This document shows, one piece after another, positions 9,001-12,000 of a DNA stretch of 12,847 bases (the stretch's first letter is position 1; every line of letters begins with the position of its first letter). The position numbers are program-made. The stretch lies in the IMG/VR virus record IMGVR_UViG_2695420763_000016, positions 1 through 12,847 of that record; one strand, 5' to 3'. This stretch comes from a virus. Taxonomy: Duplodnaviria > Heunggongvirae > Uroviricota > Caudoviricetes.

Positions 9001-12000
9001 AGAAAAGACGAATGTCACTTTGATACAAAAAGAGAAGCTTTTTGTTGTAAGTGATAATTAATGATATAAATATAGTTTTATGTGCTTTTATTTTTTACTA
9101 AAGCAAAATTAAGTTATTAAAATGGAGGGAGAGGAATGCCTGTAGATTTAACGCCTTATATTTTACCTGGGGTTAGTTTTTTGTCTGACATTCCTCAAGA
9201 AACCCTGTCTGAGATACGTAATCAGACTATTCGTGGAGAAGCTCAAATAAGACTGGGTGAGTTGATGGTGTCAATACGACCTATGCAGGTAAATGGATAT
9301 TTTATGGGAAGTCTTAACCAGGATGGTTTATCGAATGATAATATCCAGATTGGCCTTCAATATATAGAACATATTGAACGTACACTTAATCATGGTAGTT
9401 TGACAAGCCGTGAAGTTACAGTACTGCGTGAAATTGAGATGCTCGAAAATATGGATTTGCTTTCTAACTACCAGTTAGAGGAGTTGTTAGATAAAATTGA
9501 AGTATGTGCATTTAATGTGGAGCATGCACAATTGCAAGTGCCAGAGAGCTTACGAACATGCCCTGTTACATTATGTGAACCAGAAGATGGGGTATTTATG
9601 AGGAATTCAATGAATTCAAATGTTTGTATGTTGTATGATAAAATGGCATTAATACATCTTGTTAAAACAAGGGCGGCTCATCCTTTGAGCAGGGAGTCAA
9701 TCGCAGTTTCAATGATTGTAGGAAGAGATAATTGTGCTTTTGACCTTGACAGAGGTAACTTCGTTTTAAAAAATTAAGATAGCAATGGCGGGTTAACTTT
9801 TCGTAAAATGAAATTAATTCTCGGTACGACATGTAAAACGCGGCACCTCGTATGCAAGAACGTACTGCGGTTGGCTGGTGAACTTTCGATAGTGCTAGTA
9901 TTGAATGATTTCCAGCCGTTACCGATTTACGTGTTTATTAGTGAACAAACCACTCGTCAGAAGATTCCCAGGTATCTTTCAGAGTCTCCTGAACAAATGT
10001 TTTTGCAGAATCCTTATCTGCAGTGCGTGTAACAGAAAGCCCATCATTGCTGGTGGCTTTTACGATCACTTCTACATCGTCATAACGCTTACTGATGCGC
10101 CGAGTTAATTCTTCCTTTAACGCATCCACAGCACCGTTTGGCATTTTAGTCATTTTCTCTTTGGCTATGCAGATTTCAATACGCATAAAAATCCCTCTAT
10201 ACTGTGTTTGTATACAGTGTTATTTTTATCTGTATAAATAAACAGTGTCAAGAGGTCTTGTTTCTGCTCTTTTGGAGTTCTTCAAAACGATTATGTAAAG
10301 ATTTCGGATACAGTTCGGTATATACCTGCCATAGCACGTTTAATGAACGATGCCCTGTAACTTGAGCGACTTCCTCAATACTAAAACCAGCCTCAAATAA
10401 GCGACTTGCCCCTTCTCTACGCAAATCATGATATCGCAGATCTTTAATACCTAATTTGCTTCTTACCCTCTGAAATCCTGCGGTAACAGAAGTGCTGTTA
10501 TATGGAAAAATGAATTCTGATTTTTTTGGTTGTCGCTGGACGATATCCCAGGCTTCCCCAAGCAAGGCAACTTTCATATGGTTACCTTCCTTTTTACGTG
10601 GATCTTTCCTATCTCTTACTAGTATAGATTTTTGTTCTTGGTCGAGATCTTCCCATCGTAACCGGCATACTTCTCCGATTCGCATACAGGACCACACAGA
10701 AAATTTGAGGATATCAACGAACGGAATTTTTGAGCATTTATGAGTAGATCGTTGTTGAAGGCCTTCAATGAGCATGTCAAGTTCATCAGATGCTGGTCTA
10801 CGATTACGACGGTTTGATTTACCAATCAAACCGAGTTTAAGTAGATATGGACGAGCGCTTTTCGCCGGGTTTGATGTGTAATTGGTTCCGTATACAGGTT
10901 TTGCCGCATCCAGAACACTGCCAAGATAACTAACATCGTGGCTGACTGTTGCTGGGCCTGCACCAGCGTTGTTTCTTAGCCTGCAATGTTCAATTACGTC
11001 ATTTTCTGTCAGTTCAGATAGTTTGATCGCGGATATGTCACTATCCATAAGCAGTTCCAGCACATATCTTTTAGTACGGCCTGCTTTACCTCCGGCATTT
11101 GGGTCATTTAAATATTTGTGTAGTAAGTCACGGACTGTAAGTCCGTCAACTGCATTTGATGATGGAATGCCATATAGATCTAATTCCATCACTTTCTGTG
11201 TGCCCCATGTTTTGGCATGAGCATGTTTAGGGAATGTTTTGCTTTCCCTGTAAGTGATAACACCTTTTTCTTTGATAATCACATTACAGCGATAGCGTGG
11301 TGTGCCATCGGATTTTAGTCGTTTCTCTATGTTATAGTACGCCATTACACGACCTCGTTATTTCGGGTTCCCATAAAACGTGGGAACCTGTGCGGGAACC
11401 TAACGCGAGAAAAATAGCCTGAAATGTTCAAAAATGCACGATAATCATGAAGCACAAAAAATTAATCAAACCAGCGTGATGCCTGAAAAAACTGGTGTTT
11501 ACTGGAATTCTCGGTTTAGCATTGCTCCTATGCTCGACTGGACGGACAGACATTGCCGCTATTTCTTGCGTCTGCTTTCCCGCAATACGTTGCTGTATAC
11601 TGAAATGGTAACTACAGGGGCGATTATTCACGGTAAAGGTGATTACCTGGCGTATAGTGAAGAAGAACATCCGGTAGCGTTGCAACTCGGCGGTAGCGAT
11701 CCGGCGGCGCTAGCGCAGTGTGCGAAGCTGGCAGAAGCGCGTGGATATGATGAGATCAACCTGAATGTCGGCTGCCCGTCTGACCGGGTGCAGAACGGCA
11801 TGTTTGGTGCGTGTCTGATGGGTAATGCGCAGCTGGTTGCCGACTGCGTGAAAGCGATGCGCGATGTGGTGTCGATTCCGGTGACGGTGAAAACGCGTAT
11901 TGGCATCGACGACCAGGACAGCTATGAATTTCTCTGCGATTTCATCAACACCGTTTCCGGCAAAGGCGAGTGTGAGATGTTCATCATCCATGCACGTAAA

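What the first reader, a model, noticed from the sequence alone, without database searches (positions are those of the whole stretch)
11366..11400. Perfect 8-bp inverted repeat with 7-bp spacer, plus a third direct copy, in the int-dusA spacer
GGTTCCCA-TAAAACG-TGGGAACC followed 4 bp later by CGGGAACC. Two inverted core-type half sites flanking a 7-bp spacer is the canonical layout of a tyrosine-recombinase crossover site; alternatively it could be an operator controlling int and/or dusA transcription, since it lies 20-55 bp upstream of the int start codon. It is not a terminator (no T-run) and does not look like a tRNA arm.
Basis: seen in the sequence. Interest (0 to 1): 0.5.

Follow-up and report, generated by a model that had tools for sequence, protein, structure and literature searches.

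The report
Integrase arm-binding sites beside dusA
The three GGGAACC boxes next to the prophage integrase gene are most likely the accessory "arm" sites where the integrase binds to assemble its recombination complex; the DNA exchange itself happens about 150 bp away inside dusA, so this is an ordinary kind of feature that had not been described for this integrase family.

Summary
GGTTCCCA (11366-11373), a 7-bp spacer, TGGGAACC (11381-11388), 4 bp, then CGGGAACC (11393-11400) lie 21-55 bp upstream of the int start codon. The triple is expected about 0.007 times by chance.

It is not the crossover site. Comparison with an empty K-12 site, with free phages mEp460 and Lys8385Vzw, and with published work on phage 1720a-02 places the crossover at ATGCTCGA (11530-11537), inside dusA.

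- **Position.** The boxes sit in the phage-derived P arm, 136-164 bp from the core, and are absent from empty attB.
- **Other arm.** Two more copies (TGGGAGCC, TGGGAACC, 11 bp apart) lie 51-62 bp beyond the core. In a lysogen this is the opposite prophage junction.
- **Relatives.** Integrases 35-99% identical keep the same layout, but the box sequence changes by lineage (GGGGTGC, GGTGTAC, GTAGCAA and others) and changes together on both arms.
- **Close relatives.** Substitutions fall in the spacers, never in the boxes.
- **Protein.** The integrase has an extra N-terminal three-strand-plus-helix domain on a flexible linker.

Best reading: arm-type integrase binding sites, as in lambda attP. They probably also autoregulate int. 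This is a new member of a known kind and of moderate interest.

The parts
11366..11373 (-). P-arm box 1, GGTTCCCA (TGGGAACC on the minus strand). Inverted relative to boxes 2 and 3; begins 164 bp from the core.
   Evidence: The same inverted copy sits at the same distance in YeP1 and EKP1 attP with their own motifs. L086 carries matching changes in boxes 1 and 2.
11381..11388 (+). P-arm box 2, TGGGAACC; begins 148 bp from the core.
   Evidence: No substitutions in this box among 73 close relatives, while the adjacent spacers vary.
11393..11400 (+). P-arm box 3, CGGGAACC. Direct repeat of box 2 at 12-bp spacing; begins 136 bp from the core.
   Evidence: An exact 7-mer direct repeat at 10-13 bp spacing occurs upstream of int in 58 of 78 species-level relatives, against 3.2% of control windows.
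11409..11448 (.). Phased A-tract block (GAAAAATAGCC TGAAATGTTC AAAAATGCAC GATAATCATG) with a period of about 10 bp, between the arm boxes and the core. A candidate bend or accessory-protein (RdfN/IHF) region that also spans the annotated dusA start codon.
   Evidence: Read from the sequence. A comparable block is conserved in enteric relatives. Phage C5a has three perfect 10-bp repeats, GGCAATTCAA, in the same place. The function is inferred, not tested.
11434..11529 (+). Phage-supplied 5' end of dusA (first 32 codons), about 90% identical to the native sequence.
   Evidence: Alignment with the K-12 empty site and with free-phage attP. Replacement of the dusA 5' end is described in PMC4482086 and PMC8409611.
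11524..11544 (.). attR core. Phage-type half-site GCTCCTA (11524-11530), the common block ATGCTCGA (11530-11537, identical in attP, attB, attL and attR) and host-type half-site CTGGACG (11538-11544). This is the true crossover region.
   Evidence: Phage identity ends at 11537-11540 and host identity becomes near-perfect from 11530. attP reads TCCTA-TGCTCGA-TAGGA. A seven-base core was mapped within the same sequence for phage 1720a-02.
10248..11345 (-). int, a DusA-family tyrosine integrase of 365 aa. It has an N-terminal beta3-alpha domain (residues 1-58), a flexible linker, a core-binding domain and a catalytic domain.

Best explanation
The three boxes are the P-arm cluster of arm-type binding sites for the prophage's DusA-family tyrosine integrase.

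**Inferred mechanism**, by analogy with lambda-type integrases (established knowledge):
- The small N-terminal domain of Int binds the boxes, consensus YGGGARCC.
- The core-binding and catalytic domains of the same protomers bind the core about 150 bp away, at ATGCTCGA inside dusA.
- Bending of the intervening A-tract-rich DNA lets Int bridge arm and core. This builds the intasome that integrates attP into dusA and, together with the excision factor RdfN, excises the prophage.

**Layout.** The window shows attR, which keeps the three P-arm boxes next to int. The two P'-arm boxes are at attL, at the far end of the prophage.

**Likely second function.** The cluster starts 21 bp from the int start codon. 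No gene reads into int from the other side of attP, and in the lysogen that side is dusA, transcribed away from int. The int promoter must therefore lie in or just beyond the boxes. Int occupancy probably also represses int, as shown for KplE1 IntS.

**Shown here:** the position of the crossover, the boxes on both arms, the co-variation of the boxes, their conservation pattern and the domain layout of Int. **Inferred:** Int binding, bridging and autoregulation.
For: 1. **The crossover is elsewhere.**
- Homology to the empty K-12 site starts at about 90% near 11431 and becomes near-perfect from 11530.
- Identity to free phages ends at 11537-11540.
- Phage 1720a-02, whose Int is 99% identical as protein, integrates 100 bp into dusA at a 7-base core within the same sequence (PMC6328086).

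2. **The boxes are on both arms.**
- In mEp460 and Lys8385Vzw attP, GGGAACC with at most 1 mismatch occurs only five times in about 1.1 kb: at -164 (inverted), -148 and -136, and at +51 and +62 in mEp460 (+59 and +70 in Lys8385Vzw, measured from the first copy of its duplicated core).
- The P' pair is found at attL of a full prophage in E. coli O55:H7 DEC5D.

3. **The boxes co-vary between arms.**
- YeP1 (68% Int identity) has GGGGTGC at -163, -148, -136 and at +50, +61.
- EKP1 (67%) has GGTGTAC at the same five positions.
- BcepIL02 and JBD90 (about 35%) have GTAGCAA on both arms.
- Each element's own P-arm 7-mer occurs exactly twice in its own P' arm in 10 of 11 attPs. The mean for non-cognate pairs is 0.34.

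4. **The layout is family-wide.**
- 58 of 78 species-level loci have an exact 7-mer direct repeat at 10-13 bp spacing (nearly always 11-12 bp) within 120 bp upstream of int. Only 3.2% of control windows do.

5. **Close relatives conserve the boxes, not the spacers.**
- Among 73 close relatives, 7 of 9 distinct substitutions fall in the 11 spacer or gap positions and none in the 24 box positions.
- L081 has a completely different spacer with unchanged boxes.
- L086 changes boxes 1 and 2 together (GGTCCCCA / TGGGGACC).

6. **The repeats travel with int, not with dusA.** About 19 relatives sit beside other genes yet keep the repeats.

7. **Int has an extra domain.**
- A confidently modelled N-terminal domain (strands 2-10, 16-26 and 29-38, helix 41-58, pLDDT about 90) precedes a low-confidence linker and the core-binding domain.

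8. **There is a regulatory precedent.** Arm-type sites that overlap the int promoter repress int in KplE1 (PMC2951348).
Against: - There is no binding or mutational data for any member of this family. Every step that involves the protein is inferred.
- The scan found no sigma-70-like promoter in 11250-11600 on either strand, so overlap of the boxes with the int promoter is unproven.
- Some relatives fit less cleanly. C5a and YL2 have imperfect or inverted P' copies, and Vibrio PE002 shares only GTACT between its arms.
- Co-variation shows that the boxes co-evolve with something encoded by the element. It does not by itself say that the partner is Int rather than RdfN.
Confidence: 0.8

Rival explanations
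1. The boxes are binding sites for the excision factor RdfN (PrtN family), or for another small element-encoded DNA-binding protein, rather than for Int.
For: - RdfN is the essential recombination directionality factor of dusA-specific elements and is encoded just across attP (PMC8409611; PrtN-family gene at L172 37588-37869).
- Directionality factors typically bind phased direct repeats (established knowledge), and the boxes are phased at 11-12 bp.
- Co-variation shows only co-evolution with some element-encoded protein.
Against: - In the well-studied systems, directionality-factor sites lie on one arm only (own knowledge). These boxes are on both arms, in a 3+2 arrangement at lambda-like distances.
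- A separate phased repeat block between the boxes and the core (11409-11448; three perfect 10-bp repeats in C5a) is a better candidate for RdfN.
- Int has a spare N-terminal domain that needs a target.
Confidence: 0.08
2. The boxes are purely a transcriptional operator for the divergent int and dusA promoters, bound by a repressor, and have no role in recombination.
For: - They lie in the 88-bp spacer between the divergent int and dusA genes, 21-55 bp from the int start codon.
- The element must supply promoters for both genes (PMC8409611).
Against: - Two further copies lie on the far side of the core, away from both genes, and co-vary with the P-arm copies.
- The repeats persist in relatives that are not next to dusA.
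- No promoter-like hexamers were found.
Confidence: 0.05
3. The inverted repeat acts as an RNA hairpin in the int 5' leader or in a dusA leader, affecting stability or translation.
For: - The plus-strand fold contains an 11-pair hairpin, -22 kcal/mol, z = -2.3.
- L086 shows a two-sided change that preserves pairing.
Against: - In the int-sense strand the fold is no better than shuffled sequence, z = -0.19.
- Most relatives lack the inverted copy and keep only the direct repeats.
- The third copy and the P' copies have no role in a hairpin.
- No Rfam match and no T-run.
Confidence: 0.03
4. The inverted pair with its 7-bp spacer is the strand-exchange (core) site.
For: The layout, two inverted 8-mers around a 7-bp spacer, resembles a core site.
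Against: - It is absent from attB.
- The phage/host junction is at 11530-11537.
- The spacer is the least conserved part.
- attP has its own core inverted repeat, TCCTA-TGCTCGA-TAGGA.
Confidence: 0.01

Closest known systems
Arm-type sites P1, P2 and P'1-P'3 of bacteriophage lambda attP, bound by the N-terminal domain of lambda Int
   Same: - A repeated motif unrelated to the core half-sites lies on both arms of an attP of about 240 bp.
- The P-arm sites are about 135-165 bp from the core. The P' sites are about 50-70 bp from it, in direct repeat at helical-turn spacing.
- The integrase has an extra N-terminal domain, a linker, a core-binding domain and a catalytic domain.
- A separate excision factor is required.

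The lambda details are from my own knowledge.
   Different: - The motif is different and the arrangement is 3+2 rather than 2+3. The P arm contains an inverted pair.
- int points away from attP with its start 21 bp from the first box, whereas lambda int is read away from the P' side under PI/PL control.
- The core lies inside a protein-coding gene, and the element rebuilds that gene's 5' end.
- No sequence or significant structural match to the lambda N-domain was obtained.
KplE1 (CPS-53) IntS/TorI attL, where arm-type and TorI sites overlap the intS promoter and repress it (Panis et al. 2010, PMC2951348)
   Same: The integrase gene is transcribed away from the att site, so its promoter must lie within the att arm among the Int arm-type sites. 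Negative autoregulation is predicted for this geometry.
   Different: - KplE1 targets a tRNA gene and uses a different integrase family.
- Its promoter, transcription start and repression were measured. Here none of these has been mapped, and no consensus promoter was found.
The dusA-specific integrase family and its 21-bp semi-conserved att sequence (Farrugia et al. 2015, PMC4482086; Durand et al. 2021, PMC8409611; phage 1720a-02, PMC6328086)
   Same: The integrase family, the target (the 5' end of dusA), the core, the replacement of the dusA 5' end and promoter, and the RdfN excision factor are all the same.
   Different: Those papers define only the core repeats, RdfN and the promoters. In the passages I searched they do not mention arm-type sites, and no paper in the searchable library pairs dusA with arm sites.

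Membership tests
Arm-type integrase binding sites of a lambda-type (heterobivalent) attP | Several copies of one motif on both arms of attP, flanking the core | tested here: met
   There are three copies at -164, -148 and -136 and two at +51 and +62 in mEp460 attP, with no other copy in about 1.1 kb. The P' pair is present at attL of a lysogen. The same layout holds in 10 of 11 attPs.
Arm-type integrase binding sites of a lambda-type (heterobivalent) attP | Motif differs from the core-type half-sites and lies outside the strand-exchange region; absent from attB | tested here: met
   The core is GCTCCTA-TGCTCGA-TAGGATG, against boxes of YGGGARCC. No GGGAACC with up to 1 mismatch occurs in 900 bp around the empty K-12 site.
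Arm-type integrase binding sites of a lambda-type (heterobivalent) attP | The cognate integrase carries an additional N-terminal DNA-binding domain ahead of the core-binding domain | tested here: inconclusive
Arm-type integrase binding sites of a lambda-type (heterobivalent) attP | The sites co-evolve with the element's recombinase (lineage-specific motif, changed together in all copies) | tested here: met
   The motif differs by lineage while the geometry is kept. In the cognate versus non-cognate comparison, each element's own motif occurs twice in its own P' arm in 10 of 11 attPs, against a non-cognate mean of 0.34.
Arm-type integrase binding sites of a lambda-type (heterobivalent) attP | Bound by Int and required for integrative and/or excisive recombination | not testable with these tools
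   This needs EMSA or footprinting and recombination assays with mutated boxes.
Tyrosine-recombinase core (crossover) site | Shared by attP and attB, and located at the junction of element and host DNA | tested here: not met
   The junction is at 11530-11537 and the motif is absent from attB.
Tyrosine-recombinase core (crossover) site | Conserved overlap or spacer between the inverted half-sites | tested here: not met
   The 7-bp spacer holds most of the substitutions among close relatives and is replaced entirely in L081.
Autoregulated int promoter overlapping an att arm (KplE1 IntS type) | int is transcribed away from the att core, so its promoter lies within the arm among the Int sites | tested here: inconclusive
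   The geometry fits. int diverges from dusA and from the gene on the P' side of attP, and the boxes start 21 bp from the start codon. No promoter-like hexamers were detected and the transcription start is unknown.
Autoregulated int promoter overlapping an att arm (KplE1 IntS type) | Int represses its own promoter | not testable with these tools
   This needs a reporter fusion with and without Int. Pint of the related element IMEVchUSA3 is active in a lacZ fusion, but Int-dependence was not examined.
Intrinsic terminator or structured RNA | G+C-rich hairpin followed by a T-run, or a match to a known RNA family | tested here: not met
   No terminator-like site and no Rfam match near threshold. 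The int-sense fold is no better than shuffled sequence, z = -0.19.

The most novel reading that the evidence does not exclude
The box cluster is a dual-purpose element: an arm-site cluster that also works as a bidirectional operator. Int occupancy would set the level of int and also of the rebuilt host gene dusA, whose promoter the prophage supplies within the same 88-bp spacer. Prophage recombination state would then be coupled to a host tRNA-modification enzyme.

Separately, the lineage-specific boxes paired with lineage-specific residues in strand 3 of the N-domain (residues 29-35) could yield a readable recognition code for arm-binding domains.
Probability: 0.2. Interest if true: 0.5.

Novelty: new member of a known kind. 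Interest (0 to 1): 0.35.

Why it matters
DusA-family integrases are widespread.

Published descriptions stop at a 21-bp core repeat. Defining the full attP, about 240 bp with five arm boxes, says which DNA must be carried for these integrases to work. That matters for three things:
- drawing prophage borders correctly;
- building minimal integration vectors that target dusA;
- understanding why int and the rebuilt dusA share a control region.

The set of relatives with identical geometry but different box sequences is a natural experiment for working out how small arm-binding domains read DNA.

Tried and rejected
- **Crossover site.** Rejected by junction mapping.
- **Terminator or known RNA.** Rejected: no T-run, no Rfam hit, and no excess stability in the int-sense strand.
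- **Promoters.** The sigma-70 scan of 11250-11600 found none on either strand. Inspection by eye gave only poor candidates, so I do not place the int or dusA promoter.
- **Viral contigs for diversity.** The viral-contig scan returned almost only relatives 98-100% identical. These served only for the within-population conservation test. The genome-contig scan gave the diversity needed.
- **Strain 730V1 (H1).** I tried to use it to find attL, but it carries a decayed, IS-ridden island behind the same int, so I used O55:H7 DEC5D instead.
- **Rejected structure job.** It was redone with substrings of proteins returned by the homology search.
- **IHF sites.** Only two one-mismatch matches to WATCAANNNNTTR were found in mEp460 attP, one of them at +28 in the P' arm. 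This is too weak to build on.

Full report
**Setting.** The window is the right end of a lambdoid prophage in E. coli. It holds tail genes, a DinI-like gene and a 365-aa tyrosine integrase on the minus strand (10248-11345). An 88-bp spacer follows, then dusA (11434-12471) and pspG. All 5426 complete E. coli genomes match the dusA part of the query, and 742 also carry this int-dusA junction.

**The observation.** The sequence reads GGTTCCCA (11366-11373), TAAAACG, TGGGAACC (11381-11388), TGTG and CGGGAACC (11393-11400). This lies 21-55 bp upstream of the int start codon. The exact pattern never appears in shuffled sequence. A perfect 8-bp inverted repeat with a short spacer is not unusual in this window, with 13 instances against 1.6 expected. 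What is unusual is the inverted repeat plus a third copy nearby: one observed against 0.007 expected. There is no terminator-like site, promoter-like site or Rfam match.

**Where the crossover is.**
- Against an empty K-12 site, the window shows no homology over the boxes. It is about 90% identical from about 11431 and near-identical from ATGCTCGA at 11530-11537 onward.
- Against free phages (mEp460, Lys8385Vzw and eight others), identity runs from int through the spacer and stops at 11537-11540.
- attP reads GCTCCTA-TGCTCGA-TAGGATG, which is its own inverted core.
- For phage 1720a-02, whose Int is 99% identical, integration 100 bp into dusA at a seven-base core within this same sequence was shown experimentally (PMC6328086). 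The 21-bp semi-conserved att sequence of the family was defined by Farrugia et al. (PMC4482086).
- The boxes therefore lie in the phage-derived P arm, 136-164 bp from the crossover, and are absent from attB.

**The other arm.** In mEp460 and Lys8385Vzw attP, a search for GGGAACC with up to one mismatch over about 1.1 kb finds exactly five sites. Three are the P-arm boxes. The other two are a direct pair, TGGGAGCC and TGGGAACC, 11 bp apart, at +51 and +62 beyond the core in mEp460 (+59 and +70 in Lys8385Vzw). In a complete lysogen (E. coli O55:H7 DEC5D) this pair sits at attL, next to the truncated native dusA 5' end. That is the opposite prophage boundary.

**Relatives.** A scan of one genome per species gave 80 loci with integrases 53-99% identical.
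- Nearly all show two direct repeats at an 11-12 bp period 15-60 bp upstream of int, often with an inverted copy nearer to int. The repeated word differs by lineage: GGGAACC, GGGGTGC, GGTGTAC, GGTGTCC, GGGATAC, GGGGCAC, GGGGTAC and others.
- An exact 7-mer repeat at 10-13 bp spacing occurs in 58 of 78 loci, against 3.2% of control windows.
- Intact attPs of free phages give the decisive test. YeP1 (68% identity) has GGGGTGC at -163, -148, -136 and at +50, +61. EKP1 (67%) has GGTGTAC at the same five positions. BcepIL02 and JBD90 (about 35%) have GTAGCAA on both arms, with the P' pair 11 bp apart.
- A Klebsiella phage and two PM2-like Vibrio prophages fit with some degeneracy.
- Over 11 attPs, the element's own P-arm word occurs exactly twice in its own P' arm in 10 cases. 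The non-cognate mean is 0.34.
- In 55 loci the conserved dusA codons lie 162-195 bp from the int start. About 19 loci sit beside other genes yet keep the repeats, so the repeats belong with int, not with dusA.

**Fine-scale conservation.** Among 73 close relatives, 9 distinct substitutions occur in the 62 bp upstream of int. Seven fall in the 11 spacer or gap positions and none in the 24 box positions. One relative, L081, has a wholly different 7-bp spacer with unchanged boxes. Another, L086, changes boxes 1 and 2 together, to GGTCCCCA / TGGGGACC. This is the pattern of discrete protein-binding boxes. It is the opposite of what a strand-exchange spacer should show.

**The protein.**
- Pfam finds only the catalytic domain and a weak core-binding-domain match at about residues 70-170.
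- AlphaFold models place a confident extra domain at the N-terminus: strands 2-10, 16-26 and 29-38, then helix 41-58. A low-confidence linker follows, then the core-binding and catalytic domains.
- The isolated N-domain gives only weak matches, which include AP2/ERF DNA-binding domains, and nothing significant by Foldseek. The architecture fits a heterobivalent integrase, but homology of the N-domain to known arm-binding domains is not shown.
- Residues 29-35 (strand 3) differ by box class. This is a lead only, because it is confounded by phylogeny.

**Interpretation.** The boxes are best read as arm-type Int sites, as in lambda attP (lambda details from my own knowledge). Int would bridge the arm boxes and the core across bent DNA to build the intasome. 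RdfN, the PrtN-family excision factor shown to be required for this family (PMC8409611), would act in excision.

int diverges both from dusA and from the gene on the P' side of attP. Its promoter must therefore lie within the P arm, and the boxes start 21 bp from its start codon. Negative autoregulation, as shown for KplE1 IntS (PMC2951348), is therefore likely but untested, and I could not place a promoter.

Rivals are listed with their weights. The main one, RdfN binding, is disfavoured by the two-arm distribution and by a separate phased repeat block that suits an excision factor better.

**Novelty.** None of the papers I searched on dusA integrases mentions arm sites in the passages returned, and no paper in the searchable library pairs the two terms. 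This is a new member of a well-known kind. It is useful for defining the functional attP of a very widespread integrase family, but it is not surprising.

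Noticed in passing
window 11409-11448: There are four units of about 10 bp rich in A-tracts (GAAAAATAGCC / TGAAATGTTC / AAAAATGCAC / GATAATCATG) between the arm boxes and the dusA coding start. A comparable block is conserved in enteric relatives. Phage C5a has three perfect 10-bp repeats, GGCAATTCAA, in the same place (L168). This could be the RdfN or IHF binding region, or intrinsically bent DNA.
   Followed up: partly
L005 (Escherichia phage Lys8385Vzw) about 2831-2846: The deposited genome has the 8-bp core duplicated in tandem (ATGCTCGAATGCTCGATAGG). This would be expected if the record was assembled from a prophage with both att copies retained.
   Followed up: no
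L003 (E. coli O19:H7 730V1, NZ_CP061764.1 4557000-4606900): Behind an int-dusA junction 99.8% identical to the window, this strain carries a decayed island instead of a lambdoid prophage. The island is full of IS elements and carries type II Zorya genes, McrBC-like genes and a group II intron.
   Followed up: no
L111, L112, L123, L141, L150 and others (upstream of int): About 19 species-level relatives of this integrase are not next to dusA. L111 lies beside a DEAD-box helicase gene and L141 beside a substrate-binding protein gene. Some still carry a dusA-like leader remnant (AAATGCACGAAAAT), which suggests target switching within the family.
   Followed up: partly
L174, L175 (Vibrio phages 10N.286.54.F4_PE001 and 10N.286.55.A5_PE002): The same integrase family, with the same arm-repeat layout, serves 14-kb PM2-like (double jelly-roll, Vinavirales) prophages of Vibrio cyclitrophicus. 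One of them carries a gene annotated as Thoeris ThsB next to int.
   Followed up: no
window 10810-10835: A perfect inverted repeat of about 10 bp (CGGTTTGATT tacc AATCAAACCG) lies inside the int coding sequence.
   Followed up: no
window 11520-11531 and 11551-11562: An imperfect 12-nt direct repeat (CATTGCTCCTAT / CATTGCCGCTAT, spacing 31) brackets the att core within dusA. It may be chance or may reflect codon-level similarity.
   Followed up: no
L086-L165, distance from int start to dusA PMxDWTD codons: The distance from the int start codon to the conserved dusA codons at the core is tightly constrained, at 162-195 bp (median 182), across 55 species. This implies a fixed P-arm length.
   Followed up: yes
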